Positions 1 through 14,617 of a stretch of DNA of 64,000 nucleotides are shown here, one piece after another (the first letter of the stretch is position 1; the number at the start of each line of letters is the position of its first letter). Origin of the DNA: Candidatus Thorarchaeota archaeon (GTDB lineage Archaea > Asgardarchaeota > Thorarchaeia > Thorarchaeales > Thorarchaeaceae); assembly GCA_019057475.1 (NCBI GenBank), contig DXJO01000008.1, forward strand, positions 73,943 to 137,942. The letters are read 5' to 3'. The notes beneath the pieces were generated by a model. The model was given only the letters and a program-made list of their open reading frames with translations, did no database searches and was not told where the DNA came from. The translations under genes were made by a program, and so were the position numbers.

Positions 1-663
1 TTCACAAGACGGGATGCGTGGAGGGCCGCACCCAAGTACACGGTCAAGGAACTCTCGAAGCTGCTCAAACAATCTAATGTCCCAATTCTGTCGGTGCACG
101 CGAACAGGGACGTGGGCATTTGCCTTTGCTCAGATGACTTGAGGGAGATTGCACGAGGGAAGGATATGATACACGAGAGCCTAGCGCTGGCTCAGAATGT
201 TGGTGCTGGTGTGGCAGTATTCCACCTTTGGGACACTTGGAAAGCAGAGTTTAGTCCCGCCTTCCTACGAAACCTTATGAGCGACATCGTTTCTCGATAC
301 CCGAATGTTGTTGCCGCTGTAGAGAACGTGCCAACACATCTTGTGGGCCGTACTCCTTTCGATCTCGTGAAAGAGTTCGAATATGTAACGCTTGACACTC
401 GATGGGCGGCAATGTATGATGAACTGGACAAGTTCGAGAGCATCAAGGACAGAATCATCAACGTTCATCTAAGAGGGCACCTGGAGAACAAGTGGTGGGC
501 TATTGACAACGCTCCATTCACATTTGATGAGGCTCTGGCCAAGATACAGGACGGCTGGAGGTACAGAGGTCTCTTAACCCTAGAACCCGAGCGGGGACCA
601 AGTGATGTGACGTGGGAGGGCCTGCTGGTTGCGTTGAAGAATCTAAGGAACTGTAAACATTAA
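1..663 (+). CDS. Sugar phosphate isomerase/epimerase-like (xylose-isomerase TIM barrel) protein, 5' partial (frame open to window start)
   Basis: The frame stays open from nt 1; the listed start at 94 is a GTG. The translation has a TIM-barrel epimerase-like composition. No exact family motif was verified. Confidence 0.4.
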   Translation, partial: FTRRDAWRAAPKYTVKELSKLLKQSNVPILSVHANRDVGICLCSDDLREIARGKDMIHESLALAQNVGAGVAVFHLWDTWKAEFSPAFLRNLMSDIVSRYPNVVAAVENVPTHLVGRTPFDLVKEFEYVTLDTRWAAMYDELDKFESIKDRIINVHLRGHLENKWWAIDNAPFTFDEALAKIQDGWRYRGLLTLEPERGPSDVTWEGLLVALKNLRNCKH

Positions 664-759
664 CCCGGGTGTCATGGGTGCACAGAGGTTATGTGTTGAC
701 GATATCTTTCTCTGCGCTTGAACAATCCACGCCCACTAGACAGGATGCGACCGTTCTCG

Positions 760-1305
760 CTATGCTCTGACCTTGTCAACCTCGATAGCTCGTCTGACAA
801 GATCTTTGAACATCAAGTCGACGTTGTCACCCGTTTTGGCGGATGTTTCGTAGTACATGGCATTCCACATCTTCTGGACCATTTCCCCGGCCTCGGGCGG
901 CACAAATCTATCCTTTCTGTCAATCTTGTTTGCAACTACGGCGACCACTGCATTTGGGCAAACAGCGATGAACTTGTCGTACCATTCGGTGACTTCGATG
1001 AACGTTCCTGGTCGAGTCACATCATAGACAATGAATGCCATGCTGGCACCAGCCATGTAGCGCCGCCTCAACATGCTGAATCTTGTCTGACCCGCAAGAT
1101 CCCAGAAGACCACATTGGCACTGATGTGTTCGCCATCTGGCATATCAACGTCTACTGCCTTCATGGCAATCGTAGTGCCAATGGTCGCCTTGTAGGTCTC
1201 ACTAAACGTGCGGTCGGTGAACCTCTTGATGCAACTAGTCTTACCTACACCTCCAGCTCCCAAAGCGACAAGCTTGAACTTGTGAGTAAGCACCCGTCGG
1301 GTCAC
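760..1305 (-). CDS. Ras-superfamily small GTPase (Rab/Ras-like)
   Basis: Every G-box is present: G1 GAGGVGKTS, switch-I Thr (TIGTT), G3 WDLAGQ, G4 NKID, G5 ETSAK. It is 181 aa and has no CAAX tail. Confidence 0.85.
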   Translation of the reverse strand: MTRRVLTHKFKLVALGAGGVGKTSCIKRFTDRTFSETYKATIGTTIAMKAVDVDMPDGEHISANVVFWDLAGQTRFSMLRRRYMAGASMAFIVYDVTRPGTFIEVTEWYDKFIAVCPNAVVAVVANKIDRKDRFVPPEAGEMVQKMWNAMYYETSAKTGDNVDLMFKDLVRRAIEVDKVRA

Positions 1306-1442
1306 TCTATTTCCCTTCTATGACTTCTAAACATGATTGCCGTACAAGTATTAGGGTTTACCGCCTGCGTTCCGCTTGGCCTGCAGAGGGTTTTTCACGT
1401 CCCTAAACATCACAGTGAACTACCAGTATCAGGTGTGCGACA

Positions 1443-2258
1443 GTGAATCTCCCTCGACTTCTGTTCAGATATCCCGGCGGCAAATTCTATGCTCTCAAGC
1501 TGCTGAGACCCTTCTGGCAGAACACCCCTCACGATGAATACCGGGAGGTTATGGTTGGGGGTGGTGCTGTCTTCTTCGACAAGCCAAAGGTTAGGCACAA
1601 CTGGCTGAACGACAAGCACGAGGATCTGATGACTACCTATAGAACAGTTGCTGACCCGGAACTGAGAGGGCGGCTTGTGGAGCTGTTTGAGAAAGAGGTT
1701 GCCACCAAGGAACGACACGCAGAGATGAAGGAGTTCATTCCAAGCAATGATTTCGATATTGCACTGAAATTCTTCTATCTGAACCGGACTTCATTCAGCG
1801 GCAAGACTAGGTCACCATCGTGGGGCTGGCGTCCCGTTAGAAGTCTTCCACCCAATCGCTGGAAAGAGAGAATCAGACCGTGTGGTGAAAAACTGGAAGA
1901 TACAAAGATGACATGCTTAGACTTCGAGGATGTCATCATTGCTCCCTCCCTTGGAGCGTCTACACTGCTGTTCGTGGACCCTCCTTACTTTCTCGCCAAA
2001 CAAGAGAATCACTATTCCGAATCGTTCTCAGAGAACGATCACTACCGACTAGCAGCAGTGCTTGAGAAGACATCGCACAAGTTCTTCCTAACTTATGATG
2101 ATTGCAAAGAGATTCGCGAGCTGTACAGTTTTGCAAGGATTAGCCAGAATAGGTTTCTCTATCGCATAGATAACTCAAGAAACCGGGGAGGAAAACGAAA
2201 ATATGGGAACGAGCTTGTAATAACCAACTATGACCATGAGAAGGCCTTGGAATGTTGA
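1443..2258 (+). CDS. Dam-family N6-adenine DNA methyltransferase (D12 class), paralog 1
   Basis: The N-terminus reads YPGGKFYALKLL..EYREVMVGGGAVFF, which is SAM-binding. The protein carries FYLNRTSFSG and the catalytic DPPY (FVDPPYF). GTG start. Confidence 0.8.
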   Translation: MNLPRLLFRYPGGKFYALKLLRPFWQNTPHDEYREVMVGGGAVFFDKPKVRHNWLNDKHEDLMTTYRTVADPELRGRLVELFEKEVATKERHAEMKEFIPSNDFDIALKFFYLNRTSFSGKTRSPSWGWRPVRSLPPNRWKERIRPCGEKLEDTKMTCLDFEDVIIAPSLGASTLLFVDPPYFLAKQENHYSESFSENDHYRLAAVLEKTSHKFFLTYDDCKEIRELYSFARISQNRFLYRIDNSRNRGGKRKYGNELVITNYDHEKALEC

Positions 2259-2286
2259 CCACAACATTCACATTCAAGTTTGCTGA

Positions 2287-2380
2287 GCCTTCTTGCTACG
2301 AGGCTGACCAGAAGCAAGGAGGAGCTTGCTGGTCATCTGCAAGTAACAGAGGAAAAAGAAAAGGGCGCGGTAGAGTGTTG
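2287..2380 (+). pseudogene. Decayed Dam-derived fragment (PPY-region and C-terminal remnants)
   Basis: The DNA tgctacgaggctgaccagaagcaagga is near-identical to Dam paralog 2 tactatgaggctgaccagaaacgggcg (YYEADQKR). It is followed by ggaaaaagaaaaggg, resembling Dam1 ggaaaacgaaaatatggg (GGKRKYG). There is no intact ORF. Confidence 0.35.
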
Positions 2381-3010
2381 GCGGAAAGAGGGCTGTAAAC
2401 AGCTGCTGCAAAGTTGGACATATCTGGACAATTTCATTGTGGGCTTCATATAGACCAATTCGACATTGATCTCCGAGGAATATGACACACCTGTGAAGGT
2501 TCCTCACGGAGTAGTCCAGTGCTGTTTTCTGGACGTACTAGACTTCGGTGTCAAACTTTGTACAACCTACAATGAACGGTTCGTATGGAGGGAAGGTATC
2601 GCGTGTAACGGGAGGAAAAAAGAGCCCGCCAACCCGCGCCACTGTCCATGCATGCCTGTGAGGCCATTTAAGCATCCATGAAAAACCACGGGGAGCGCAA
2701 GAGCAAGGTCAGACGCAACAGATCTACACAATGCATGGAGCCCCCGGCGAGTGCGGTGTCAAGCAGCTGGTCGAACTGTGAAAGATAATGCTTCAAGTGT
2801 CACTCATTCGCTTTTCCCAGCCAAGTCCTGCCAAGAGCAGTTCACAAAATCGGGACGATACACGATAAATCGAACAGATACAACGAAGATTCGATTATAT
2901 TATTTCATGGTAAATCGTTATATGCCTGTTCAGTCAGCTGCTTTCAGAGTCGCCCCAGCAGAAAATTGCAAGGGAATAACACTGCGACGAGGGCTGGATA
3001 TCCAAGCTGA

Positions 3011-6000
3011 ATGGACCGATTGCCAATCCAAAGGTGTATGCAGATGAGAATCAGTAGAAATTCCGTGGGTTTTGCATTCCTGATGACATTGTTACTTGTG
3101 TCAGGCTTTCTTTCGCAAATGGGGACTGCATCGCCTAATCTGAGTACTGTAGGAGCGATGCCGCACGCAATAGATAATATGCTGAGCCCTGACGCATCGG
3201 GTCCTGAAGCAGTGTATGTCACATCCGATCTCCCCTCATCGACAACCGGCACAGGATTGTTATTGCATGTAGTCGAATATGCTAATGGAACCTTTGTCGA
3301 ACGCAACACAAGAGCAAACGAATCAACCACTTTCTATCCTCAGAGGTTCGATATTCCACAGGGGTGGCACACCACTCAGATCACAGCAATAAGCTCTAAG
3401 ATGTATCATCTCAGAGATTGGGTACAGAACGGAAATTTCTCAGCCATCACCGGCTGGTCGTACAACGAGGATCCCAGTCCCACTGGTGTTCTAACAGAGG
3501 ATTACGATGGCATCAATGACTGGATTACGATTGTTCGTGAATCTGGTGGAAAAGTGCAATACGACTATTGGGGCTCGTGGAATCAAACAGTGCAAGTCAT
3601 CGAGGGTGGAGCTGCCTCTGCAACGCTGAATGTCACTTACAAAATCGATACCACAACAGGCACCAACGGGCAAACTGCAGAACCGTATCTCTTCGTCAAT
3701 GGTTCAATGTATGAACTACCATCCGGAGGAAGAAGATTCAGCAGCAATCAAGACTGGACTACCTATTCCGTTGAGCTACCGCTTTCTGAATTCACCTTTC
3801 CAGGCGACCTAGAAGTGGCGTTGGGCATTCGAGGCTGGAATGGAACTCAGTTCCAGACAAAGGGTACCTTAACTTGCGACAATGTCACGTTGACTCTACG
3901 GACCTCAAGATTCGTCGAGGCAGTTGACCTGAGAACACGCGACAAAGATGACCCCCCAAACACGGTGCAGTTCACAACGGGAGCAGGTGGAAAAGGCTAT
4001 GCCACCCTCTCAGGCAACTGGACAAATTATGTAGAGTTAGAGTTTCTAGCCAATGAAACGGGTACTGAGTTCAGTCTGGACCTCTTCATGCATTTGATGC
4101 GAAATAACAATCTTGATACCAATACATACACTGTCGCAAACGGCACTGATGCAACTTGGGACTGTGCTTTTACCGCGCGGGAGATGGCTTACCCATTTAC
4201 ATCCCACTACTTCAATGTGTCAATTCCTCATGATTGGACTCTTGAATCGGTGTATGATGCATACAATGACCTTCAGCTGTCTGGCACAACCTACTACAAT
4301 GCCACATACTACGGGGCCGAATCAATACTCGTATGCGATGTCTATGGTACTGGTGTAAGCGGAACGCCCCACTACGGCACCTGGACCTTTTCGTCGACCG
4401 CCCCCAACTACGGCAAGGCCCTCTCGTCATGGGGTGCACCGGACGGATACTGGACTGAAACGATCAACTTCTATCCGGGCTCAGATCTCCGGGTCAATGT
4501 CACATTCAGCGATGGAATAGAATCCCCCCCGACTTCTCCGGGTAACGGAACGCTGAATCTCTACAATGTGGAAACACAACTTGTATACACCGAGTCTGGA
4601 GGTGCTCTGGACGTTTCTGGCTTACACATTTACCAGAATGGAACAGGCATATCAAACATCACAATTCAACCCTCGTGGCTTGCTGGATCAATCACAGCAA
4701 TCGCTTCATGGGGCAACGGAACGTCGGTGGGAGAAATCAGGAAGCAGTTCTTCATCTATCACAGAACTGAACTAGAGATAGAGGCAGCAGTCTATTACGC
4801 GTTTCGAGGGGACACAATCTCCGTAAGAGTCAAGTATGTTGACTCTGAAACAGGACTTGGTATTCCTGCAGCCTCGCTCTACTATAACTGGACCTATGGT
4901 TCAGACGCCATGGGGTATGCTGGTAACGGATGGTACGCAGGATATGTGGATACCTCAATGGCCATGATAGGAGATTATCCAGTCACGGTGAACGCATCCA
5001 AAGAGTATAACGACTTTGCACTGACAACTGGCATCACAATCAAAATCCAAGAGAGAACCACGCTCTTCTCACCTAGGAGCCTGCAAACCCCAACCACTGA
5101 CTATGAGATCCCATGGGGGAACTCGAAGGTCATCTACTTGGCCTACGAGGATACCATTCAAATGAATCCTGTGGCCCTGAGTGCCAATCCAGGCAGTCCT
5201 GGGAGTCCAGATGTGACTGACACGTACACTTCCAACAATGTCTACGCGACGGTGACCAGTGTAGGCAATGAAATCTCTCTTACAGTTGAAACCAATGTCA
5301 CCCCTTACGGTTTCCTGACCGCTGACCTCACTTCGATGTCCTACAAGGCTGAGGGTAAGTTTAGCGTCGCAGTTAGCACCGGATCTGTTTATGCCTATAA
5401 CTTCAGCAGTGGCTCCTGGGTGATAATCATTGATTCATACCAACCAGTTGTCGACACCACTCTCTCATGGAAGACCCTCAAGCCAAGTGATTTCATCTCT
5501 ACAGGCGGTATTGTGCGGGCTCGGGTCAATGCAACCCATTCTGCATCCTTTAGCTTCGATCTCGACCTCTTCGATTTTGTGGCCAACCGCCCTATCGATG
5601 ACACTGAACCAAGTGTTTTGATTAAATCAGATTGGCCAGCACAGTCTGTCGTTGGCACTCAAGTAGGACCCGTCTACAACGCATCTCTGAATATCTGGCA
5701 GGTCACACTGAACACGAGGGATGTTGTACCTGGTGAATACACAGTACTCATTGAGGCCTCAGCCACTGGACACCAGAGCAAATCCCTAGAGTTGACAGTT
5801 GCTCTAAAAGCCCATCAGAGCCGGGTGTCGGTGTATCCACTCTCAGAAACTCCTTGGAGCTGGAAGACATGGATTAACGTTTCAATTACGGACACAGACA
5901 ACTCGTCAATGGTGCTTTCGGAGAACAACATCTCATTGATTCAAGTGGAATCCGCTTATGGTATTCAGTTTTTCACCTCATCCAATTGGACGTACAGCGA

Positions 6001-8566
6001 CTCAAGTGGATATGCTGAAGTTGCTCTCCATCTTGACACAAGCGCATGGGACATCGGTTCTCACTCTGTGACAGTCACAGTGACTACATCAGGCACAGGT
6101 CTATCCAAGTTCTTTAATGATCCATCATTACAGCATGTGGATATTGGAATCAGGCGGGTCAGGACAGGACTCTACGTTGACAGCTCCATAATTTCGGTGA
6201 ACTGGAGCGATCAGGTGAATCTTGCAGCTTGTTATGATAACCTAGATATAGGTGAACTGGTGCTTGGCGCAACCGTAAAGGCATCATTGAGTGGCCTATC
6301 ATTTGATCTTACTTCGAATGGTACAGCGTACACAGCTCACATTGACACTGCACCGCTGGATGTTGGAACCTACATCATTACCATAACGGCCAACAAGACG
6401 AACTTCGAAACCAAAATCATTCAGGTCACTCTTGTTGTGTTTGTTCTTCAGACTGTGATGGAGAGTGCAGATGGATTGTATTCATTCTCTGTCGTAAGTG
6501 GAGAACATGTCGACCTGTTAGTATACTATTACGAGCTGGCATTTGGACTTGGCGTAGGCGATGCCACTGTGTCATACGTCTGGGACCTCGGCAGCGGGCT
6601 GCTTGTCACAAATGGTACAGCTGGATACTACACGGCAACAATCAATGCAACGGCTTATGTGAACATATACACGATCTCCGTGAGAGCCAACAAAACGAAC
6701 TACGCCACAACCAGCATCTACTTCAGTCTCGATGTGGGCCTTGTTGAAACCGAGCTATCATCGGTCGGTGAGCCTACTCTCCGAGTCGTCTTTGGTGAAA
6801 TGGCATTCATGGTGGTCAACTACACCAGCAAGAATTTGGAAGAACCTGTCACAGGTGCCTCCTTGCAGTTTAGGTTTGGTGACACAAACTACACAGGCAT
6901 CCTAACTGAGTCCCAACCAGGAATCTACAACGCCACGATTGACTCCTCTCAACTGCACGCCGGGACGTTCAGTTTCTATATTGTGGCGACGAAGGCCGGA
7001 TACAAGGCTGGTACTCTCGCTCGCCTCTTGGAAGTAGCCCAGATTGACACAATTCTTACCTCTACACATCCACCGCTGACTGTTGTCTATGAGTCAATTG
7101 CCACATTCTTCTTCAACTACACAGATGTATATTACGGGCTTCCAATAGAGAATGCTACACTTGAGTACACATGGTTGGGTGGGACGGGCATCCTCGATGA
7201 GATGGGAAACGGAATCTACAGCACTGAGTTTGACAGCGTTCTCGTGGGTTTCGGACTGCACAATGTCCATGTGAGCGCTTCCAAGAGCAACTATGTGTTC
7301 AGAACTGCATCGTCGACGCTCGAGGTACGCGTCATAGCCGCCGAGGTCATTGTTGATGAGTACTACACGATTCCTATTGGCGACGCCTTGACAATCCATG
7401 TTATCTACAATGATACATCCTACAACAGATTGATCAATGATGCCACAGCTCTGGCAGTATGGAGCTACGGAAACGTAGACCTCATTCCCACGGGAGATGG
7501 CCAATACTCATTCACAATACCTGAAACCCTTGCAATGGACACCTTCTACGTGACATTCATCCTCAGCAAAGCTAACCACGAAAGTGTCAGTGTGCGCGTA
7601 ACAATTATCGTGCGAGAGATCGCCACTCATCTCTCAACACTCAGTGGCGACAACTTCGTGGGTGCCACAATCGGTGAGTTAGTCCAGATAACCATGGTCT
7701 ACACTGATACCGACCACAACATACCCATATCAGGCGCCATACTCTCTGTAACACAAGAGAGTGGAATTATTGATGAGAGCGATTGGACAGTTGTTGAGGG
7801 TCTTGTCCCTGGCCAGTATGTCATATCATTCGTCGTACCGGTTGACGAGCAGTTCAGCATACTGGTAAGTGCTCAGAACGGGGAGAACTACAATGCACAG
7901 GAGATTACTATTGCAATAGTCGCTACTCCAGTTACAGTGGATCCGCTGACGTCGATGATGACCTTATTCGGGAGTCTCGGTGTGATATTCTTCCTTGTTT
8001 GCGCTCTTCTCTATGTCAAGATCTTCAGCGTTCCGATAGTGATTCGTCGTCTGAATAGAATGATCAAGGTAATGTCCAAGGGCGGGATACCCAAGGTCCC
8101 GGAGGCCCCAGGTAGAGATGAGATAATCCAAGATATTATCAACACAGGCCTGGCCCCGGTCAACATATACAAGTCACTTGATGAGATTCCCAAGGAAACT
8201 ATCGAGCTCATGATACCTGAAACTGAAGCGCTGCTTCAGGAACTGGCGGAGATAACAGGTCTCACTGAGGATGACATAGCAGCACTCCATTCTGACCTTC
8301 TGAGAATGAAGCCTAGTGAGAGGCCCGGGTTCCTAATGGAGGTCATTCGTCAGGAGAAAGCCAGAAGGTCAAAAATCCTCGCTGAGAAAAAGGAGGAGTC
8401 AAAGAGAAGAGCAATCACCAAGGCCGAGCTTGAGGATGTGCGGGCTAGGCTTGAGGCCATGGGCTTCGATGAAGGTCAGCTTGAACTGATTATGGAAAAT
8501 GCGAAGAATCTAACCAAGGCTGAGGTAGATGCTCTGTTGGATAGCATGGGGGACTCCACTAGGTAG
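3011..8566 (+). CDS. Giant secreted/surface protein: N-terminal signal peptide, very many N-x-S/T sequons, C-terminal TM helix and cytoplasmic coiled-coil tail
   Basis: It is 1851 aa. MQMRISRNSVGFAFLMTLLLVSGFLSQMGTASP reads as a signal peptide; alternative starts are 3038 and 3044. N-x-S/T sequons run throughout (NGTF, NVTY, NGSM, NWTN, NETG, NVSI, NATY ...). Repeated Thr/Ser/Val-rich beta-like segments. TM helix LTSMMTLFGSLGVIFFLVCALLYVKIF, then about 170 aa of charged, Glu/Lys/Arg-rich tail. No PGF-CTERM. Confidence 0.7.
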   Translation: MDRLPIQRCMQMRISRNSVGFAFLMTLLLVSGFLSQMGTASPNLSTVGAMPHAIDNMLSPDASGPEAVYVTSDLPSSTTGTGLLLHVVEYANGTFVERNTRANESTTFYPQRFDIPQGWHTTQITAISSKMYHLRDWVQNGNFSAITGWSYNEDPSPTGVLTEDYDGINDWITIVRESGGKVQYDYWGSWNQTVQVIEGGAASATLNVTYKIDTTTGTNGQTAEPYLFVNGSMYELPSGGRRFSSNQDWTTYSVELPLSEFTFPGDLEVALGIRGWNGTQFQTKGTLTCDNVTLTLRTSRFVEAVDLRTRDKDDPPNTVQFTTGAGGKGYATLSGNWTNYVELEFLANETGTEFSLDLFMHLMRNNNLDTNTYTVANGTDATWDCAFTAREMAYPFTSHYFNVSIPHDWTLESVYDAYNDLQLSGTTYYNATYYGAESILVCDVYGTGVSGTPHYGTWTFSSTAPNYGKALSSWGAPDGYWTETINFYPGSDLRVNVTFSDGIESPPTSPGNGTLNLYNVETQLVYTESGGALDVSGLHIYQNGTGISNITIQPSWLAGSITAIASWGNGTSVGEIRKQFFIYHRTELEIEAAVYYAFRGDTISVRVKYVDSETGLGIPAASLYYNWTYGSDAMGYAGNGWYAGYVDTSMAMIGDYPVTVNASKEYNDFALTTGITIKIQERTTLFSPRSLQTPTTDYEIPWGNSKVIYLAYEDTIQMNPVALSANPGSPGSPDVTDTYTSNNVYATVTSVGNEISLTVETNVTPYGFLTADLTSMSYKAEGKFSVAVSTGSVYAYNFSSGSWVIIIDSYQPVVDTTLSWKTLKPSDFISTGGIVRARVNATHSASFSFDLDLFDFVANRPIDDTEPSVLIKSDWPAQSVVGTQVGPVYNASLNIWQVTLNTRDVVPGEYTVLIEASATGHQSKSLELTVALKAHQSRVSVYPLSETPWSWKTWINVSITDTDNSSMVLSENNISLIQVESAYGIQFFTSSNWTYSDSSGYAEVALHLDTSAWDIGSHSVTVTVTTSGTGLSKFFNDPSLQHVDIGIRRVRTGLYVDSSIISVNWSDQVNLAACYDNLDIGELVLGATVKASLSGLSFDLTSNGTAYTAHIDTAPLDVGTYIITITANKTNFETKIIQVTLVVFVLQTVMESADGLYSFSVVSGEHVDLLVYYYELAFGLGVGDATVSYVWDLGSGLLVTNGTAGYYTATINATAYVNIYTISVRANKTNYATTSIYFSLDVGLVETELSSVGEPTLRVVFGEMAFMVVNYTSKNLEEPVTGASLQFRFGDTNYTGILTESQPGIYNATIDSSQLHAGTFSFYIVATKAGYKAGTLARLLEVAQIDTILTSTHPPLTVVYESIATFFFNYTDVYYGLPIENATLEYTWLGGTGILDEMGNGIYSTEFDSVLVGFGLHNVHVSASKSNYVFRTASSTLEVRVIAAEVIVDEYYTIPIGDALTIHVIYNDTSYNRLINDATALAVWSYGNVDLIPTGDGQYSFTIPETLAMDTFYVTFILSKANHESVSVRVTIIVREIATHLSTLSGDNFVGATIGELVQITMVYTDTDHNIPISGAILSVTQESGIIDESDWTVVEGLVPGQYVISFVVPVDEQFSILVSAQNGENYNAQEITIAIVATPVTVDPLTSMMTLFGSLGVIFFLVCALLYVKIFSVPIVIRRLNRMIKVMSKGGIPKVPEAPGRDEIIQDIINTGLAPVNIYKSLDEIPKETIELMIPETEALLQELAEITGLTEDDIAALHSDLLRMKPSERPGFLMEVIRQEKARRSKILAEKKEESKRRAITKAELEDVRARLEAMGFDEGQLELIMENAKNLTKAEVDALLDSMGDSTR

Positions 8567-10247
8567 AACCACATTCTCCGGAGTAATACTGAAGGCTTGA
8601 CGTCGACCAGAATGCCCCCAACTTGTGACACATGAGTTCTTTGATGGCCTTGGCGGATTGCAACCCAACAATTGGCTACATTGACGACCTACTATTGACC
8701 TATTCTCTCGACATAGCTCTCTACGAACTTGGCTCTCTCGGCTCTGCATTTGTGGCTGAGCTGCGCAAATGGGCCAGCTGCCAGTACACTCTGGACCTCA
8801 ATGAGGGGGTCTCAGATAAGAGAATCAAGTCTGTCACTCTCTTACTGGGCTCAGCACTCAACTCCACAATCCATATCACAAGCTCCCTGAATCTCAACTC
8901 CACAGTCATCTTCTCGAACAATGCTCGTTTATCCTATGACAATCAAAGCTTCAAGTACGATGCTTCAGGAACCGTTGCCCGAAACTTGTACAATCTTGGA
9001 CATCAACGTCCTTGACTGATGTTTGGTTCCTGATTCATTGAGGTCTGCTCTGCAGATCCTACTGGATCTGCGACAAGTCTTGCGTCCTCTCCACAGGCGT
9101 TTTCTGTCTCCATCCAACTGGCGGCGACCGAAGTTCATGCAGGCCCTAGCAATCAGCATTGAACATCCACACTAATCAATCCTGAGCAGTATGTTATAAC
9201 CACCTACAAAATGTCTAAGAATGTACAAGTTCTTGGCAGCTGTTGCATACCCTCCGCTTTGGATTTGGTGAAGATGTAAGACTCAGCCGGTGGTTTCGCG
9301 TTTGGATTGACACAGACATGGCAGCCGTATACATTGACCTACTCGACAGTCATGGTGGTAAGATCACCTTTTCCTACCTGACAGACTACCTCATAGCAGA
9401 CATTGACGGTTGGTACTCCTGTGGTGCCCGTATGTATTCCGCCGAGGTCAAACTCACGCCACCTGTAGTTGATGTTGCGGTCAGCACGAATACTGCTGTG
9501 GTGGTTCTGTACGACTGGAACTTCTTTTGACCAGACCGCCTTACTCCTTCGTAGTTGTAGCCCCCTTGCTAGGAATATGGCCTTACGTGTCTGCTTCTCC
9601 GCAGTTGTAGCTAATTACCAGTACCCCAAAGCAGATTGATAGGACTGTATCTCTCTCCACTCGCATTAGCTGCTGAGAGCATGAAAAATCGTAGCCTCTG
9701 TGAATACAGTGAGGACGGCACCTGCGTACTTCGCAGTGATGAAACAGTGTATTGCCCATTCTCAGGTCAACTTGGAGCATGGGGTTTCGCAGGGCTCTTT
9801 GTCTACCAGTTCTACGAGATGAGGGAACAGGTACTGCACTTGGCTAACGGTCGGGAAGTGATAGAGCTCTCTCTAGAACGGGCATTTGAAGTGCCAAGCC
9901 GCAGCTACGTAGAGTCTGGGTTAGGTCCCATCACCTTCACTGACTTCCTGCGAGGAGTGGAGGAAACAGTAACATCATTTGTAGCAAACCTTTCGTGGTT
10001 GCCTCCAGTTCCTGACGAGTGACTTGTTTCGTCGAACGGTAGCAAGTTCCTGCTGGTTATGTTGACACCGTCGATTATGACAGTTTCTGTGGTAGTCCTG
10101 TCGAGAGCGCCGATAAGTTGTCTTTCCCGACCCGGGTGGTCCCATTATCCAGTAGATTGCCAGCATACTTAATACAGTCGTGTGAATAGCCGCGTCGACA
10201 AATTGGTTCAAAAATGGTGTATGATAGTGCAGGGGGATAACTCAAGA

Positions 10248-10307
10248 GACCGGAGTGGGCGCCGCAAGTCCGGTCAGGAATTAGTCATTACGAACTACGA
10301 CCCTCAG
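10248..10307 (+). pseudogene. Dam C-terminal remnant immediately upstream of Dam paralog 2
   Basis: The translation DRSGRRKSGQELVITNYDPQ mirrors the Dam1 C-terminus RNRGGKRKYGNELVITNYDHE and the Dam2 C-terminus KMGQELIISNY. It lies in frame upstream of the real Dam2 start. Confidence 0.4.
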
Positions 10308-10373
10308 ATAACTGTGGAAGAAACCACGACCCACACAGGGGGTGACGCCATTCATTCTGAAATCACCACAAGA

Positions 10374-11174
10374 ATGATGGACCGCTCTATCAAGTCTCCA
10401 TTCCGGTTTCCTGGCAGCAAGGCTCAGGCAATCAAGTACATTCGACCCCACTGGGAGAGCAATCCACACGCCGAGTATCGAGAACCATTCCTTGGTGGTG
10501 GTGCAGTGTTTTTCTCGAAGCTAAGGGTTCCATCTATCTGGCTGAACGACATTGACGAAGAACTTGTCACTACATACAAAACAATACAGGACGCTGAATC
10601 ATGCTCCCTTCTGATGGAACGAGTGAGTCAGGAAGAAGCAACAAAAGAACGCCACACGGAGATGAAGCACTGGAAACCGAAGACCGCCCTGGACATTGCT
10701 CATCGCTATTTCTACCTCAATCGTACATCGTACAGTGGTATAATGAAGAAACCCGCGTGGGGGTATCACCCGAAGAAGAGTGTCCCCCCGGAGCGGTGGG
10801 GACCACGAATCCTGCAAGCACATGAGAAGCTACAAGGTGCCAAAATCACATCTCAGGACTTCGAGTCCATAATCGAGGCACCCGCACAAAATAATGGCGT
10901 CTTCATGTTCATCGATCCTCCGTACTATGAGGCTGACCAGAAACGGGCGTATAAGCACTCATTCACTCAGGCTGACCATGTGCGGCTCGCTGCCATTCTC
11001 AAGGGGACCGACCTGCCCTTCTGCCTGACCTATGATAATTGCGAGCCAGTTAGAAACCTCTATGACTGGGCCACAATAACTCCGGTTTCTTGGAGGTATC
11101 ACACAGCAAATTCTCGAAAGGCTAGCAGGAAGATGGGTCAAGAACTTATCATCAGCAACTACAAACTCGAATGA
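10374..11174 (+). CDS. Dam-family N6-adenine DNA methyltransferase, paralog 2
   Basis: FPGSKAQAIKYI..EYREPFLGGGAVFF, YFYLNRTSYSG and FIDPPYY (DPPY). The likely ATG is at 10374. The listed ORF start at 10182 includes the Dam-remnant leader. Confidence 0.8.
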   Translation: MMDRSIKSPFRFPGSKAQAIKYIRPHWESNPHAEYREPFLGGGAVFFSKLRVPSIWLNDIDEELVTTYKTIQDAESCSLLMERVSQEEATKERHTEMKHWKPKTALDIAHRYFYLNRTSYSGIMKKPAWGYHPKKSVPPERWGPRILQAHEKLQGAKITSQDFESIIEAPAQNNGVFMFIDPPYYEADQKRAYKHSFTQADHVRLAAILKGTDLPFCLTYDNCEPVRNLYDWATITPVSWRYHTANSRKASRKMGQELIISNYKLE

Positions 11175-11391
11175 AGCCCTGAATCTTGGCCTGTCTTGAG
11201 CTTGGCCATATGTTAAGTTCGCAAGAACGATGTTGGTCCTCTGTTAAGACCGAGCCTTCGTTTCTTCTCATTTTTCGAGCACTATGATTTCTGGAGGTCC
11301 TAGAATGGTGTTTGGGTCTAGTCTGGGCGGTTTCTAAGGGAGACGCCATTACTACAACTGCTAATATGCAAAATGACAATCGTTCTGTTGA

Positions 11392-11730
11392 TTGTCGATG
11401 ACGGTACGATTAGATTCCATCTCTAGGGCTTTCAGCGAAGGAAGGACGGTATGCAATAGACTTGGCTGCGTCATTCTGTATACGGGTGACAGTTGCGCAC
11501 TGTGTGATGTCGCTATGGAGGTTCTGCAAGAGGTCGTTACCGAGTTCGGTCTTCCCCTCGACATTGTTACTGAGGTGGATATCGACACAGCCAATGATTG
11601 CGACCTTTCCGGTATTGTCGCTCTTCCCACGATGAGCATCTGTGGAAAAGTCATTCCCGGATTGCCGGATGTCGATGATGTTAGAGGAGCTCTCATGAAT
11701 GCAATTCTCGGGGGTTGCCTCTTTAGGTAG
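11392..11730 (+). CDS. Small thioredoxin/glutaredoxin-like redox protein (CxxC)
   Basis: VILYTGDSCALCDVAMEVL carries a CxxC in a thioredoxin-fold context. It was preferred over the overlapping antisense ORF 11361..11696. Confidence 0.4.
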   Translation: MSMTVRLDSISRAFSEGRTVCNRLGCVILYTGDSCALCDVAMEVLQEVVTEFGLPLDIVTEVDIDTANDCDLSGIVALPTMSICGKVIPGLPDVDDVRGALMNAILGGCLFR

Positions 11731-11755
11731 GCATGCTCTGACTGCTCGCTTCTTT

Positions 11756-13015
11756 CTACACCCGTTTGAGGATAACTAAGTGCTCTGTAGCCATTCTGCT
11801 GTCCGCATAGCCCGATGCCGGGTTAACTTCTGATTTGAACATGGATCGCGAAACTATCGGGTCTACGTAAGTGACAAGATGCTTCCAGCCCATTTCCGTG
11901 AGATGTTCAACCAAAATCTCATCAATGGGGATTGATCTTGTCCTAATCTTGGCAGGCCCAACGAATATGCACATGTAGTCATTGACTCTCTCTCCAAGAG
12001 TCGCGAATGCATTTATTGTTCCATGGAAGTACCTGTCATACAGCTGGACAAGGTGGTCCTCAACTATCTCCTTTCTGTAAGCTTGATACTTCTCAGAGTG
12101 AATGTGAATCTCGTCAACAGAGTTGTACGGGAGTTCTTTCTTGCTCAACGATCTCACGTATTCCTCATTATGCCCCAGCCAGAAGAGTTCGAGCTTCGTC
12201 GACCTGATGTACTCCTGAGCTTGCAGGTAGGGCGGAGATGTAATGAGAATATCCACATCTCTGTCTAGCTCGGTGTTGAGGGAATCAATCCCTGATCTCA
12301 GCTTGTGCTTCACCGGTTGAGGATTGAGATTGCTGTGTTCCTTCATCTTGTTGAGGAGTTTCTCAATCTGCTTTTCCAGCATGCTGTAGAACTCGGTTTC
12401 CCAATCTGTCCCCAGCAGCCGCTCTACCTTCTTCTTCGAGTGTCTGGATTTGTACAGCTTGTGCACCTTCTCATCACTGTATGAGAAGTATCTGGTTGCC
12501 TTCAGAAGAGGAATCGAGAGCATTTTCTTCGTCTTGCCCTTTGTTGCATGAACTAGTCCCCATGCCTTTGAGATAGTTGGGAGAAACTCTTCCGGGAACC
12601 AATACGTCAGGTTTGACCAGTCAGGAATGAATTCATGGTCAGAATTGCGCACTCTGGCAACTAGTTCTTGAACGTTGATTTTTGGGGCTTTCATGACTGC
12701 AGTGTCATGGAATAGGTTCATTATGGGATTCAGGTCCCAGAGCTCGTAGTCATGACCGTATACCCTTGACACAACGCCAACTGTGCCATAACCCGCAAAG
12801 GGATCGAACACGACTGACCCTGGTTCCGCGTATTTCTTCAGAGTGTAGGCGATAACCTGAGGGATGAACTTGGCTGGGTACTTGTAGATGGAGAAGGTTC
12901 CATAGGTCGTCTTGGGAATCTCTGGGACCGAGTTCCTGAACACCACGTCGACTCTCGGAGCAGCATCCTGATTGGATTGCGTGGTTCCGTTGGATGGTGT
13001 TCTGCCTTTGCTCAT
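11756..13015 (-). CDS. DNA methyltransferase, N4/N6 (N-4/N-6 methylase domain), alpha-like motif order
   Basis: Motif I VFDPFAGYGTVG lies near the N-terminus. Motif IV ITSPPYLQAQEY lies about 195 aa downstream, leaving room for a TRD in between. Confidence 0.75.
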   Translation of the reverse strand: MSKGRTPSNGTTQSNQDAAPRVDVVFRNSVPEIPKTTYGTFSIYKYPAKFIPQVIAYTLKKYAEPGSVVFDPFAGYGTVGVVSRVYGHDYELWDLNPIMNLFHDTAVMKAPKINVQELVARVRNSDHEFIPDWSNLTYWFPEEFLPTISKAWGLVHATKGKTKKMLSIPLLKATRYFSYSDEKVHKLYKSRHSKKKVERLLGTDWETEFYSMLEKQIEKLLNKMKEHSNLNPQPVKHKLRSGIDSLNTELDRDVDILITSPPYLQAQEYIRSTKLELFWLGHNEEYVRSLSKKELPYNSVDEIHIHSEKYQAYRKEIVEDHLVQLYDRYFHGTINAFATLGERVNDYMCIFVGPAKIRTRSIPIDEILVEHLTEMGWKHLVTYVDPIVSRSMFKSEVNPASGYADSRMATEHLVILKRV

Positions 13016-13044
13016 TGTTGTACACTCTTGAGAGTTCTTCAGAT

Positions 13045-13755
13045 TTAGGACTGTTTACTGTTCCTGTCTGTATGAAGGAACGCTCTTCTGCGTTTTCCAC
13101 AGACCGTAATGGCTCCCATCTTCCTCAAGCAATATGTCATCTTCTGCACCAGCCATCTCGGTTTGTCAGTGGCCTTGGCAAGGTCTGCATTAGTAAACGG
13201 TCTGGTCAGTGAATCTGGAATGAACGCGAGGAACTCCTCAGGTTTCTCGAAGAGATACTGGTCAGTAACCTCGACCAGCCTGCGGTCGACGATACTCCAC
13301 CCTTTGCGCCTCCAGCTCCCCTTTCCGTCATTGCGCCTGATTTCCTCTTCGCGGATGAGCAGAATTTCGAGTGAGAAGTTCTGATGAGCGACGAGTTCTG
13401 GGAAACTCACGAGTTCCTCAAACAGGTTCTCAAGCGACTTCCTCTTGGGTGAACGCCGTTTCCCGAGTTCGACGCTGCCGTCGAGGCTCTCCCGGACTAT
13501 CCATTTCTCGTGGGCGAGCGGATGAACGAGCCGCACCTGATGACTCCCAATCAGGGTCATTAGTTTCTGCTTGATAGCAGAGAAGTTGCTGGTCTGAATC
13601 TCGATAAGCAAGTCGCCACGCACTATGTCAATTACAAAACCATCAACTGGTACTTCCAAGAGGTCTCCTGAGTTGCTGTACCATTGCTTCAATGCAGCAT
13701 GCAAAGAGCTCTCAGCCAGTACTCCAATGCCTTGAGAGCCTCCCTCAGAAGCCAT
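13045..13755 (-). CDS. Hypothetical PD-(D/E)xK nuclease-like protein; candidate restriction endonuclease partner of the adjacent MTase
   Basis: VDGFVIDIVRGDLLIEIQT fits a D...D...E-x-Q/K layout. The gene is co-oriented and 29 nt upstream of the MTase. Start taken at MASEGG (13755); the listed ORF start at 13890 would overlap the IscU gene. Confidence 0.35.
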   Translation of the reverse strand: MASEGGSQGIGVLAESSLHAALKQWYSNSGDLLEVPVDGFVIDIVRGDLLIEIQTSNFSAIKQKLMTLIGSHQVRLVHPLAHEKWIVRESLDGSVELGKRRSPKRKSLENLFEELVSFPELVAHQNFSLEILLIREEEIRRNDGKGSWRRKGWSIVDRRLVEVTDQYLFEKPEEFLAFIPDSLTRPFTNADLAKATDKPRWLVQKMTYCLRKMGAITVCGKRRRAFLHTDRNSKQS

Positions 13756-13837
13756 GTGTTTGACTGATGCTTCACTCCTTTTGTCAGTTCTGATAAAAAG
13801 ATGGCTTCGCGCCATAAACCGAACTCTGCTCCGGGTA

Positions 13838-14617
13838 TTACCCGATAATGACAACGGCATCGATGAATAGCTCGTATTCCTCGTCTTCATCGAGGTTCTT
13901 GATCAGTGCACGTTCTACCTCAAAGTCACCTCTGATCTCAAGGAGTTGTGACTGGTACAGAATTTTGAGTCCCACGTTGCCGAGGAGCATGTTCAGCTCG
14001 TCCGGCATCTTGATGTCCTTGCCACATGTCAGCAGAATTACTCGGTCGGTATGATCTGTGAGCTTAATCGCGGCTTTGATTGATGCATCTCCAGTGTAAA
14101 TTACCAGAGTTCGCTGATCGTCAAAAACAGTCGGATCGCCTATTGTTCGGTACAACCCGTTATTCTCAAATTCGGTCTTGCACACGATGTGTTCTGTTTG
14201 GACGATATCATCACACTCGGGCTCATCCACCTCGCCACTCTCCCTGCGGCGGTAGCTGCTGATTGCCTCGTGCAAAGCTTCCGCTGCCAAATTCGAACAG
14301 TGCATCTTGATGGGCGGCAAACCGTCCAATTCTCCGGCTACATCCTCGCGCTTGACTTTCATTGCCTCATCCAAGGTCATTCCTATGACCATCTCCGTGG
14401 TCATGCTGCTTGTGGCAATAGCGGAGCCGCAACCGAAGGTTCGGAACTTGGCATCCACAATCTTGTCATCTTTCACCTTGATGAAGACCTCCATAATGTC
14501 TCCACACGTTGGATTGCCAACAGTTCCAGAAGCCACGTCATCTCCCTCGAGAGTACCAACGTTTCTTGGATTTCGGAAGTGGTCTAGAACCTTTTCAGAG
14601 TACTTTGTTGACTTCAT
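13838..14617 (-). CDS. iscU: IscU/NifU-type Fe-S scaffold fused to an uncharacterised ~130-aa C-terminal domain
   Basis: The N-terminus has the three scaffold Cys contexts (GNPTCGDIMEV, FRTFGCGSAIATSS, MHCSNLAAEAL). Residues 125-259 have no recognised motif. Confidence 0.8.
   Translation of the reverse strand: MKSTKYSEKVLDHFRNPRNVGTLEGDDVASGTVGNPTCGDIMEVFIKVKDDKIVDAKFRTFGCGSAIATSSMTTEMVIGMTLDEAMKVKREDVAGELDGLPPIKMHCSNLAAEALHEAISSYRRRESGEVDEPECDDIVQTEHIVCKTEFENNGLYRTIGDPTVFDDQRTLVIYTGDASIKAAIKLTDHTDRVILLTCGKDIKMPDELNMLLGNVGLKILYQSQLLEIRGDFEVERALIKNLDEDEEYELFIDAVVIIG

What the first reader, a model, noticed from the sequence alone, without database searches (positions are those of the whole stretch)
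1443..11174. Two Dam paralogs each abutted by a decayed Dam fragment, bracketing an 8-kb block
Dam1 (1443-2258) is followed at 2287-2380 by DNA near-identical to the PPY/YEADQK region of Dam2. Short matches to the Dam C-terminal GGKRKYG codons follow that. Dam2 (10374-11174) is preceded in frame by a remnant of a Dam C-terminus (GQELVITNYDPQ). Between the two fragments lie the giant surface-protein gene and a 1.6-kb stretch of low coding density. This suggests repeated recombination among tandem Dam copies, or a third Dam gene that the 8-kb block split. Paired orphan Dam methyltransferases are typical of defence or epigenetic islands.
Basis: seen in the sequence. Interest (0 to 1): 0.55.

Follow-up and report, generated by a model that had tools for sequence, protein, structure and literature searches.

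The report
Fused double methylase split by insertion
The two "Dam paralogs" are the two halves of one double DNA-methyltransferase gene that close Thorarchaeota relatives carry intact; an 8-kb insertion has cut it in two here, and the "decayed Dam fragments" are the scars of that event, so this is a tidy but fairly ordinary gene fission.

Summary
The window is a Thorarchaeota contig. Dam1 (1443-2258) and Dam2 (10374-11174) are both D12-class methyltransferases and are 49% identical to each other. Ten related contigs carry a single 554-codon fused gene, eight complete and two running off a contig end. In nine of them the gene order is the same as here.

In that fused gene the N domain resembles M1.BsrBI and the C domain resembles M2.BsrBI. 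In the window an insertion of about 8.07 kb (2169/2189 to 10235/10255) splits the gene at codons 243-247. Removing the insertion restores exactly 1665 nt.

The fragment before Dam2 is real. It is the displaced original N-domain tail plus the interdomain linker, still in frame.

The fragment after Dam1 is much smaller than claimed. It is 41 nt (2273-2313), 76% identical to the motif IV region, with modest statistical support. The "GGKRKYG" matches are not significant.

Dam1's last ~30 codons are a foreign "type B" replacement tail that differs synonymously at almost every codon. The same type B patch occurs in one relative whose fused gene is intact (L026), which may be an excision scar.

Both halves are intact, with pairwise dN/dS about 0.15. 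No recombinase or nearby restriction enzyme was found. An independent assembly reproduces both junctions.

The parts
1443..2258 (+). Dam1: the N-terminal (M1.BsrBI-like) methyltransferase domain of the ancestral fused gene, now a stand-alone 271-codon ORF
   Evidence: PF02086, E 6e-27. 92% nucleotide identity to codons 1-242 of the fused genes in L001 and L026. 57.6% identical to M1.BsrBI (321 bits) against 264 bits to M2.BsrBI. The product was called identically in an independent Logan assembly, L030.
2163..2258 (+). Type B replacement tail of Dam1 (codons 241-271 plus the TGA stop at 2256-2258). It encodes the conserved last strand GGKRKYGNELVITNYD but with nearly every codon synonymously different from the orthologous type A tail
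   Evidence: 67-71% nucleotide identity to type A tails with dS saturated, against 89% identity and dS 0.30 to the L026 patch. Codon-by-codon view. It keeps all eight invariant tail residues of alignment A6.
2169..2188 (+). Left copy of the 20-nt core repeat GATAACTCAAGAAACCGGGG (first 12 nt identical to the right copy)
   Evidence: blastn 10236-10253 against Dam1 nt 727-744. Alignments A2 and A3. The 12-mer occurs only at 2169 and 10236 in the window.
2273..2313 (+). 41-nt scrap of a C-domain motif IV region (FKFAEPSCYEADQK against FMFIDPPYYEADQK), out of frame with Dam1
   Evidence: The best direct repeat in 1300-11400: 76% identity to 10902-10942 (D1). 78% identity to L002. Shuffle tests. 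tblastn E about 0.01. Not significant by profile HMM.
2316..2837 (.). Spacer of unknown origin inside the insertion
   Evidence: No ORF, and no blastn or tblastx match to any fetched locus or to the rest of the window.
2838..8566 (+). Giant surface-protein gene (CDS 3011 or 3044 to 8566) with about 170 nt of its own upstream region. It is a shortened relative of an L005 gene pair
   Evidence: blastn: 2838-6121 matches L005 9795-13075 (84%) and 6117-8541 matches L005 20662-23095 (78%). About 7.6 kb of L005 is missing here. Homologues are found only in Thorarchaeota. There is no Dam gene beside it in L005 or L006.
8567..10235 (.). Right flank of the insertion. Coding density is low and no recombinase or transposase is recognisable
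   Evidence: Pfam scan of all six frames found nothing. PADLOC found nothing for its three small ORFs. It contains a structured-RNA element at 9027-9097 on the minus strand and a Walker-A scrap on the minus strand.
10236..10373 (+). Displaced original tail of the N domain (codons 243-266, starting with the right copy of the core repeat at 10236-10255), then the interdomain linker. Both are in frame with Dam2
   Evidence: 93.6% nucleotide identity to L001 codons 243-310. Private G249S and Y254S changes. Homology to L001, L004, L008, L026, L027, L028 and L029 starts exactly at 10236.
10374..11174 (+). Dam2: the C-terminal (M2.BsrBI-like) methyltransferase domain. The possible start codons are GTG 10182, ATG 10221 (the JGI and Logan gene call) and ATG 10374
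   Evidence: PF02086, E 8e-28. 91% identical to P0121. 54% identical to M2.BsrBI (297 bits) against 280 bits to M1.BsrBI. A 317-aa product is called from 10221 in L031 and L032.

Best explanation
This is one gene, not two paralogs plus relics.

Shown:
- The ancestor carried a single 554-codon gene for a two-domain D12 DNA methyltransferase. The N domain is orthologous to M1.BsrBI and the C domain to M2.BsrBI.
- In this genome about 8.07 kb of DNA sits inside the last ~30 codons of the N domain, at codons 243-247.
- The N half now ends in a replacement tail (type B) taken from a divergent homologue, followed by a stop codon.
- The original tail and the interdomain linker were pushed to the far side of the insertion and remain in frame with the C half.

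Inferred for function, by analogy with M.AlwI and other two-methylase systems for asymmetric sites:
- Each domain methylates one strand of an asymmetric site.
- The split reproduces the two-gene layout seen in Geobacillus. Both activities can therefore persist if the C half is transcribed from within the insertion and starts at ATG 10221 or ATG 10374.

Inferred for origin:
- The incoming DNA carried a relic of a divergent fused gene: tail, stop and a motif IV scrap.
- It recombined with the resident gene through the 12-20 nt core GATAACTCAAGA(R)ACCGG.
- This looks like a single-crossover (Campbell-type) or homology-facilitated integration, which automatically supplies a working 3' end.
- Relative L026, with an intact gene but a type B patch at codons 241-263, looks like the product of later deletion between the two tail copies.
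For: Intact fused gene in relatives.
- It is complete in eight contigs: L001, L002, L004 (the same record as L007), L008, L026, L027, L028 and L029. It is partial, running off a contig end past the linker, in L011 and L012.
- The local order is Ras GTPase, fused gene, glutaredoxin-like gene, then a 419-aa N6/N4 methylase, as far as each contig reaches. L002 lies in a different context.

Breakpoints.
- L001 4007-6238 matches window 1-2241, and L001 6166-8947 matches window 10236-13017, both at 92% identity. L004, L008, L026, L027, L028 and L029 give the same right-hand breakpoint at 10236.
- Window 1443-2168 joined to 10236-11174 is exactly 1665 nt, the length of every intact gene.

Tail types.
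- The left tail has saturated dS against the right tail and all type A tails, but is 89% identical to L026.
- The left and right copies share GATAACTCAAGA exactly.
- The replacement tail keeps the invariant residues S245, R252, G255, E257 and ITNY260-263.

State of the two halves.
- Both ORFs are intact. Pairwise dN/dS to relatives is 0.11-0.17 in both halves, and there is no excess of private non-synonymous changes.
- The displaced tail carries two private non-synonymous changes.

Family assignment.
- P0045 is M1.BsrBI and P0198 is M2.BsrBI, with adjacent accession numbers. The best-hit pattern is reciprocal.
- Methylases joined in one chain, one per strand, are described for AlwI (PMC4081073).

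Reality of the junctions.
- The window is 100% identical to a JGI contig (L031). Logan contigs L030 and L032 reproduce the left and right junctions at 100% identity.
Against: - No integrase, transposase, terminal inverted repeat or tRNA marks the block as a mobile element.
- No donor locus with an intact type B gene beside the giant gene was found.
- Type B-like bases at codons 241-242 (CGC ATA) lie upstream of the duplicated core. A simple reciprocal crossover at codons 243-246 does not predict this.
- The motif IV scrap has only modest support and fails a profile test.
- Expression of the C half is untested. dN/dS is a pairwise value that mostly reflects the time before the insertion.
- Target specificity is inferred from 54-58% identity to the BsrBI methylases. 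CCGCTC has no adenine on one strand, so equating the specificity is uncertain. The site is not depleted in the window: 24 observed against 26.7 +/- 5.5 expected.
- The two assemblies may rest on the same reads.
Confidence: 0.8

Rival explanations
1. There is an array of tandem Dam paralogs that recombine repeatedly, or a third Dam gene that was split by the block. Dam1 and Dam2 are independent orphan genes.
For: Dam1 and Dam2 are true ancient paralogs at 49% identity. Sequence from a second, divergent Dam copy is present at 2163-2313.
Against: All related contigs have one fused ORF. Its two halves are orthologous, at 90-93% nucleotide identity, to Dam1 and Dam2. The right-hand fragment is the same gene's tail and linker, and the two parts join to exactly 1665 nt. 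A profile scan found no further Dam remnants in either flank.
Confidence: 0.04
2. Population introgression. The insertion first arose in another lineage whose whole fused gene was type B. The insertion allele was later moved into this background by homologous recombination between strains, with crossovers just upstream of codon 241 and just after codon 246. Under this model the ends seen here are recombination breakpoints, not the original integration junctions.
For: - The right copy begins with 12 nt identical to the type B left copy and then switches to type A.
- Type B-like bases already appear at codons 241-242.
- Relatives are mosaics. Codons 232-239 occur in at least four versions, and L026 carries a type B patch.
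Against: No lineage with a complete type B gene was recovered in the genome, metagenome or viral scans. The model still needs an initial event of the same kind as in the main explanation.
Confidence: 0.25
3. Transposon or insertion-sequence insertion. An example would be an IS607 or IS200/605-type element, hinted at by the RAGATH-18-like RNA. The Dam-like bits would then be coincidental or secondary.
For: There is a sub-threshold RAGATH-18 match at 9027-9097 on the minus strand (25.5 bits). Its homologue in L029 scores 29.7 bits. Such RNAs guide IS607 TnpB (PMC11061315). The element occurs at another site, and in either orientation, in relatives.
Against: No TnpA or TnpB signal in any frame. 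The RNA element lies 1.1 kb inside the block, not at an end. The block ends carry no inverted repeats. A transposon would not supply a homologous replacement tail whose codons are conserved at the amino-acid level.
Confidence: 0.07
4. Local tandem duplication. The segment from codon 243 to a point in the variable region downstream of the locus was duplicated, and most of the left copy was then deleted or replaced.
For: - The insertion holds a second tail and a second motif IV scrap, in the right order.
- The RNA element at 8972-9128 has homologues in L029 and L008 about 2.6 kb downstream of the Dam locus. In L029 it lies in the same orientation.
- The window lacks that variable segment at 13792/13839.
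Against: - The left and right tails are saturated at synonymous sites, so they are not recent duplicates.
- The left copy keeps nothing of the linker, the glutaredoxin-like gene, the methylase gene or the DUF8091 gene.
- The giant gene has its closest relative in a different chromosomal context.
Confidence: 0.06
5. Assembly chimera: the 8-kb block was wrongly joined into the contig.
For: The source is a metagenome-assembled contig. A related giant gene occurs on another contig of the same metagenome (L005).
Against: - The flanks are collinear with relatives on both sides over more than 20 kb.
- The junctions carry diverged, not identical, repeats.
- Logan contigs L030 and L032 cross both junctions at 100% identity.
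- The type B tail exists independently in L026, which comes from another sample.
Confidence: 0.03

Closest known systems
M1.BsrBI / M2.BsrBI of Geobacillus stearothermophilus (ADR72999.1, ADR73000.1): two methylases serving a restriction enzyme with an asymmetric site
   Same: Dam1 and the N domain match M1.BsrBI best (57.6% identity). Dam2 and the C domain match M2.BsrBI best (54% identity). The pattern is reciprocal. After the split, the window has two separate genes, as Geobacillus does.
   Different: The ancestral archaeal form is a single fused chain. Here the two genes are 8 kb apart rather than adjacent. No cognate nuclease lies nearby. Specificity is untested.
Single-chain double methyltransferases of type IIS systems: M.AlwI (PMC4081073), and M.FokI and M.LlaI (from my own knowledge)
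   Same: The relatives' 554-aa proteins have two complete D12 domains joined by a linker of about 30-45 aa. By analogy, each domain is presumed to modify one strand of an asymmetric site.
   Different: The window copy is no longer a single chain. Sequence relatedness to AlwI or FokI methylases was not tested. In this clade the gene lacks the conserved neighbouring 380-420-aa candidate nuclease seen in L002, L009, L010, L013 and L014.
Integration into the 3' end of a protein-coding gene with a substitute 3' end, as for phage 21 and e14 in E. coli icd (from my own knowledge; not checked in the library)
   Same: The insertion lies in the last ~30 codons. The incoming DNA supplies an alternative tail that preserves the protein sequence through many synonymous differences. 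The displaced original 3' end sits at the other junction. A short shared core is found at both ends.
   Different: No integrase is present. The block has no recognisable phage or plasmid genes. The substitute end also terminates a fused protein early, so the gene is split rather than preserved whole.
Homology-facilitated illegitimate recombination in natural transformation (from my own knowledge)
   Same: One end of the foreign DNA is anchored in homologous sequence, here the Dam tail. The other junction is abrupt, with only short identity.
   Different: The short identity at the far junction equals the start of the donor's own tail. This points to a duplicated core rather than to a chance microhomology.

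Membership tests
D12-class (alpha-group) N6-adenine DNA methyltransferase, Pfam PF02086 | Full-length match to the family profile above the curated cut-off | tested here: met
   Dam1 scores 95.5 bits and Dam2 98.3 bits against a cut-off of 22, covering profile positions 1-245/252 of 253. The best PADLOC model for both is MTase_II PDLC03247.
D12-class (alpha-group) N6-adenine DNA methyltransferase, Pfam PF02086 | AdoMet-binding glycine motif and catalytic DPPY motif present in each half | tested here: met
   Dam1 has VGGGAVFF and FVDPPYF. Dam2 has LGGGAVFF and FIDPPYY. These positions are invariant in alignment A6.
D12-class (alpha-group) N6-adenine DNA methyltransferase, Pfam PF02086 | N6-adenine methylation activity at a defined site | not testable with these tools
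   This needs methylome data or enzyme assays.
E. coli-type Dam (GATC orphan methylase; NCBIfam TIGR00571 / NF008152) | Score above the curated cut-off of the dam subfamily or equivalog models | tested here: not met
   TIGR00571 gives 92 and 108 bits against a cut-off of 114.85. NF008152 gives 40 and 34 bits against 441. 'Dam' is therefore a fold-level label here, not a claim of GATC specificity.
BsrBI-type M1/M2 methylase pair | Each half is closer to a different member of the pair (reciprocal best match) | tested here: met
   Dam1 scores 321 bits to M1 and 264 to M2. Dam2 scores 297 bits to M2 and 280 to M1. The two domains of P0121 show the same pattern.
BsrBI-type M1/M2 methylase pair | A cognate restriction endonuclease gene lies next to the methylases | tested here: not met
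   A conserved 380-420-aa protein flanks the fused gene in L002, L009, L010, L013 and L014. It gives a weak Mrr_cat hint (E 0.045). tblastn finds no homologue in the window or in L001, L004, L008 or L026-L029.
BsrBI-type M1/M2 methylase pair | Recognition of CCGCTC/GAGCGG | tested here: inconclusive
   Only site frequency could be examined: 24 sites against 26.7 +/- 5.5 expected, so no avoidance. Specificity itself is not testable here.
Single-chain double methyltransferase (M.AlwI / M.FokI type) | Two complete methyltransferase domains in one polypeptide | tested here: not met
   This is met in relatives (554-aa ORFs). It is not met in the window, where a TGA at 2256-2258 and 8 kb of other DNA separate the domains.
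Integrative mobile element inserted in a gene's 3' end | Direct repeats of the attachment core at both junctions, plus a substitute 3' end | tested here: met
   The 20-nt core matches at 18 of 20 positions, with the first 12 identical, at 2169 and 10236. The replacement tail has saturated dS.
Integrative mobile element inserted in a gene's 3' end | Element-encoded integrase or recombinase | tested here: not met
   No Pfam family in any of the six frames of 8567-10235. The giant protein has no Pfam match above the curated cut-off, and the three small ORFs have no Pfam or PADLOC match. 2259-3010 was inspected by translation only.
Integrative mobile element inserted in a gene's 3' end | Evidence of excision or an empty site | tested here: inconclusive
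   Empty sites are common: ten related contigs. L026 has a type B patch at codons 241-263 that ends where a crossover between the two tails would leave it. Gene conversion would give the same pattern.
Transposon / insertion sequence | Transposase, terminal inverted repeats or a target-site duplication at the block ends | tested here: not met
   No transposase. No inverted repeats at 2169-2320 against 10150-10255. The repeat at the ends is part of the target gene's own homologue.

The most novel reading that the evidence does not exclude
The block could be, or descend from, an integrase-less integrative cassette. It would home to the tail of this methylase gene by carrying its own copy of that tail. 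Insertion and homologous excision would then toggle a Thorarchaeota population between a fused and a split double methylase, with L026 as an excision scar. The effect would be to change the expression ratio or strand balance of methylation, a slow and recombination-driven form of epigenetic phase variation in an Asgard archaeon.
Probability: 0.12. Interest if true: 0.6.

Novelty: new member of a known kind. Interest (0 to 1): 0.33.

Why it matters
- It corrects the annotation. Two "orphan Dam paralogs with relics" are in fact one conserved Thorarchaeota double methyltransferase related to the BsrBI methylase pair, caught just after a gene fission.
- It is a clean natural example of how a fused two-domain modification enzyme can revert to a two-gene layout without losing either catalytic core. 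The incoming DNA supplied a replacement for the essential last strand.
- It gives a testable prediction for Asgard methylomes: an asymmetric motif methylated on both strands, and possibly unequally in the split strain.
- It matters for annotating metagenome-assembled genomes. Gene callers report a 271-aa and a 317-aa "DNA adenine methylase" with no hint that they are halves of one gene.

Tried and rejected
- Further decayed Dam sequence. A profile HMM built from 31 fused homologues, run against all six frames of 2242-3010 and 8567-10235, found nothing significant. tblastn with 11 homologues gave only the motif IV scrap and noise.
- The "GGKRKYG" codon matches. These are not above shuffled controls.
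- A recombinase or transposase in the block. Pfam on all six frames of the right flank, and PADLOC on the small ORFs, found nothing.
- tRNA genes as attachment sites. There are none in the window.
- Inverted or direct repeats at the block ends beyond the core. None were found.
- A core-like motif at the variable site 13792/13839 of relatives. None was found.
- A donor locus for the block. The giant-gene relatives L005 and L006 have no Dam gene beside them.
- A viral origin. No viral contig encodes a relative of the fused gene.
- In-situ decay of a duplicated tail. This was rejected because the differences are almost all synonymous and the same variant recurs in L026.
- An old tandem duplication of the whole gene. 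This was rejected because Dam1 and Dam2 are each about 8% diverged from the single gene of relatives.
- Site avoidance as a clue to specificity. CCGCTC is not depleted.
- Exact look-ups. The 266-aa, 330-aa and 1851-aa products were not on record, because the gene callers used other start codons.

Full report
**What is at the coordinates**

ORF listing and Pfam show two D12-class N6-adenine methyltransferase genes: Dam1 at 1443-2258 and Dam2 inside ORF 10182-11174. They are 48.6% identical over 259 aa. Between them lie three stretches:
- about 750 nt without a gene;
- a 1851-aa surface-protein gene at 3011-8566;
- 1.67 kb in which no frame matches any Pfam family.

Flanking genes include a Ras-family GTPase (760-1305, minus strand), a glutaredoxin-like ORF (11392-11730) and a 419-aa N6/N4 methylase (11756-13015, minus strand).

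**Checking the claimed fragments**

- *The fragment before Dam2 is solid.* 10236-10319 encodes DNSRDRSGRRKSGQELVITNYDPQITVE, 64% identical to the Dam1 C-terminus (E 2e-6). It lies far outside shuffled controls: score 93 against 31 +/- 4, with 0 of 300 shuffles reaching it.
- *The fragment after Dam1 is smaller than described.* It is 41 nt (2273-2313), 76% identical to Dam2 10902-10942, and includes a 14-nt exact run. It beats shuffles of 2259-2400: 1 of 300 shuffles reach the nucleotide score and 0 of 300 the protein score. Over the wider region 7 of 300 reach the protein score. It fails a profile-HMM test.
- *The following "GGKRKYG" matches are not significant*.

**The key result: relatives have one fused gene**

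A search with the 330-aa ORF returned 554-aa proteins that cover 96% of the query at up to 91% identity. That coverage includes the "remnant" and the stretch between it and Dam2. Their N-terminal halves are nearly identical to Dam1.

The contigs that encode them are L001, L004 (the same record as L007), L008, L026, L027, L028 and L029, and partially L011 and L012. NCBI names those that come from its records Candidatus Thorarchaeota. They share the window's local gene order: Ras GTPase, fused methylase, glutaredoxin-like gene, 419-aa methylase. In L026 the shared order continues through NifU, the class-V aminotransferase, the alcohol dehydrogenase and the M24 peptidase. L002 is a more distant Thorarchaeota-type copy in another context.

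**Breakpoints**

- blastn maps L001 4007-6238 to window 1-2241, and L001 6166-8947 to window 10236-13017, both at 92% identity.
- L004, L008, L026, L027, L028 and L029 all resume at exactly 10236.
- Joining 1443-2168 to 10236-11174 gives 1665 nt, the length of every intact gene.

So 8.07 kb has been inserted at codons 243-247 of a fused gene, and no resident sequence was lost.

**Anatomy of the junctions**

*Right side.* Homology to relatives starts abruptly at 10236 with GAT AAC TCA AGA. It continues as the ordinary "type A" tail and linker, 93.6% identical to L001. The tail has two private amino-acid changes, G249S and Y254S. This fits a piece that no longer closes a methylase fold.

*Left side.*
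- Dam1 follows the relatives up to codon 240.
- From codon 241 to its stop it carries a "type B" tail. The protein sequence is conserved (GGKRKYGNELVITNYD, with all invariant tail residues of alignment A6 kept).
- Almost every codon differs synonymously from type A. Nucleotide identity is 67-71% and dS is saturated. That is the mark of a long-separated homologue under purifying selection, not of local decay.
- The TGA stop aligns with a TGG codon in the linker of the distant homologue L002 (LEKW).
- Fourteen nucleotides later, in another frame, comes the motif IV scrap.
- The two junctions share a 20-nt core, 18 of 20 positions matching and the first 12 identical.

**A second genome with the type B tail**

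L026 comes from a different metagenome and has an intact fused gene. Its codons 241-263 are type B, 89% identical to the window's left tail with dS 0.30. It returns to type A at codon 264.

This shows type B is real and circulating. It is also exactly what a deletion between the two tail copies, with a crossover at codons 262-264, would leave behind. The shared left edge at codon 241 favours such an excision scar over an independent conversion, but it does not prove it.

**Is it an assembly artefact?**

- The window is 100% identical to JGI contig Ga0326314_1000019 of metagenome 3300032107 (L031).
- Two Logan contigs from SRR1964815 cross the left junction (L030, matching window 1-2426) and the right junction (L032, matching window 9226-13751) without a mismatch.
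- The flanks are collinear with relatives on both sides.

I consider a chimera very unlikely, although the two assemblies may share reads.

**What the gene is**

- Named homologues are M1.BsrBI (ADR72999.1) for the N domain and M2.BsrBI (ADR73000.1) for the C domain, with a reciprocal best-match pattern.
- BsrBI is a type IIT enzyme that acts on an asymmetric site. Double methylases joined in one chain, one domain per strand, are described for AlwI (PMC4081073).
- In five distant loci a conserved 380-420-aa protein sits beside the fused gene: L002, L009 (Woesearchaeota), L010 (Stahlbacteria), L013 and L014. It has no family match, apart from a weak Mrr_cat hint in L002, and is probably the nuclease.
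- That protein is absent from the window and from its close relatives. In this clade the double methylase is therefore a conserved chromosomal orphan.
- Neither half reaches the cut-offs of the E. coli dam models, so GATC specificity should not be assumed.

**Is the split gene still working?**

- Both halves are uninterrupted and keep the AdoMet and DPPY motifs.
- Pairwise dN/dS to relatives is 0.11-0.17, the same as between relatives. Private changes are few: 5 synonymous and 4 non-synonymous in the N half, 5 and 2 in the C half.
- These measures mostly reflect history before the insertion, so they cannot prove present function.
- The C half has lost its promoter and start codon. Candidate starts are ATG 10221 (the start chosen by the JGI and Logan gene calls) and ATG 10374.
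- An AT-rich CTTAATAC at 10168-10175 could serve as an archaeal TATA box. This is only my reading of the sequence.

**Origin of the block**

- The giant gene plus 170 nt upstream matches a longer gene pair on another contig of the same metagenome (L005): 84% identity over the 5' part and 78% over the 3' part, with 7.6 kb missing here. No Dam gene lies beside it there.
- The flanks 2316-2837 and 9245-10235 match nothing fetched.
- No recombinase, transposase, tRNA or terminal repeat was found.
- No viral contig carries the fused gene.

The best-fitting mechanism is homology-guided integration of DNA that carried a relic of a type B fused gene, with the crossover in the shared core. The main variant is that the insertion allele arose in a type B lineage and was moved here by recombination between strains. 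That variant explains the type B-like codons 241-242.

I rate the structural conclusion (one fused gene split by an insertion) at about 0.9. I rate the specific integration mechanism at about 0.45. The overall figure of 0.8 refers to the statement as worded, with the mechanism marked as inference.

**Verdict**

This is a new member of a known kind: a BsrBI-like double methylase caught in a gene fission. It has two mildly unusual features, a supplied replacement 3' end and a possible excision scar in a relative. Interest is moderate to low.

Noticed in passing
window 8970-9244 (RNA core at 9027-9097, minus strand); L029 4401-4545; L008 about 6600-6900: A conserved element of about 100 nt gives sub-threshold matches to RAGATH-18 (RF03064): 25.5 bits here and 29.7 bits in L029, against a gathering score of 44.9. 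RAGATH-18 is the guide-RNA scaffold of IS607 TnpB. Three copies support a fold with 7 compensatory pairs. In the window it is bracketed by 34-nt inverted repeats (8970-9003 and 9211-9244). In relatives it lies at a different site, in either orientation, with no TnpB nearby. It may be a non-autonomous mobile RNA element.
   Followed up: partly
window 13792-13839, against L026 12281-14247, L008 from 5204 and L029 from 4129: The intergenic spot between the DUF8091-like gene and NifU is a variable site. L026 has 1.97 kb there with two genes (a 326-aa protein and an ATC_hydrolase). L008 has a 323-aa secreted protein plus the RNA element. L029 has the RNA element. The window has only 46 nt.
   Followed up: partly
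L002 11756-12901; L009 11616-12887 (minus); L010 11563-12786 (minus); also L013 and L014: A conserved 380-420-aa protein sits next to fused double methylase genes in Thorarchaeota, Woesearchaeota, Stahlbacteria and Chitinophagaceae contigs, at 32-40% identity across phyla. It has no Pfam, NCBIfam or PADLOC family; the only hint is a weak Mrr_cat match (E 0.045). It is probably an uncharacterised restriction endonuclease family, possibly BsrBI-like.
   Followed up: partly
window 3011-8566, against L005 10001-23120: The 1851-aa surface protein is a deletion derivative of a gene pair of about 4370 aa in total (1127 + 3240 aa) on another contig of the same metagenome. The first ~3.1 kb and the last ~2.4 kb are retained and about 7.6 kb is missing. 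The family is restricted to Thorarchaeota.
   Followed up: partly
window 9975-10211, minus strand: A short ORF holds a Walker-A motif (IMGPPGSGKTT) followed by non-protein-like sequence. It is probably the 5' scrap of an ATPase gene, reading away from the right junction.
   Followed up: no
codons 232-239 of the fused gene (window 2136-2159 and the homologous positions in L001-L029): There is a hypervariable eight-codon stretch just before the tail. It occurs in at least four unrelated versions among genomes that are otherwise about 92% identical: ISQNRF, NFPLEF, AYPLEF/TYPLEF and VSRSRF. This suggests frequent mosaic recombination at this spot.
   Followed up: no
window 11756-13015 (minus) and 13045-13890 (minus): A 419-aa N6/N4 methylase with a circularly permuted look (its match to the Pfam profile's C-terminal part lies near the protein's N-terminus, and SPPY comes late in the sequence) is conserved beside a DUF8091 protein in all close relatives. 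This may be a second modification system, or a restriction-modification pair.
   Followed up: no
The homologue search with Dam1 alone did not list the ~90% identical 554-aa fused proteins; its best hit was 63% identical. The search with the 330-aa ORF found them. The word-index search can therefore miss close relatives that are domains of longer proteins.
   Followed up: no
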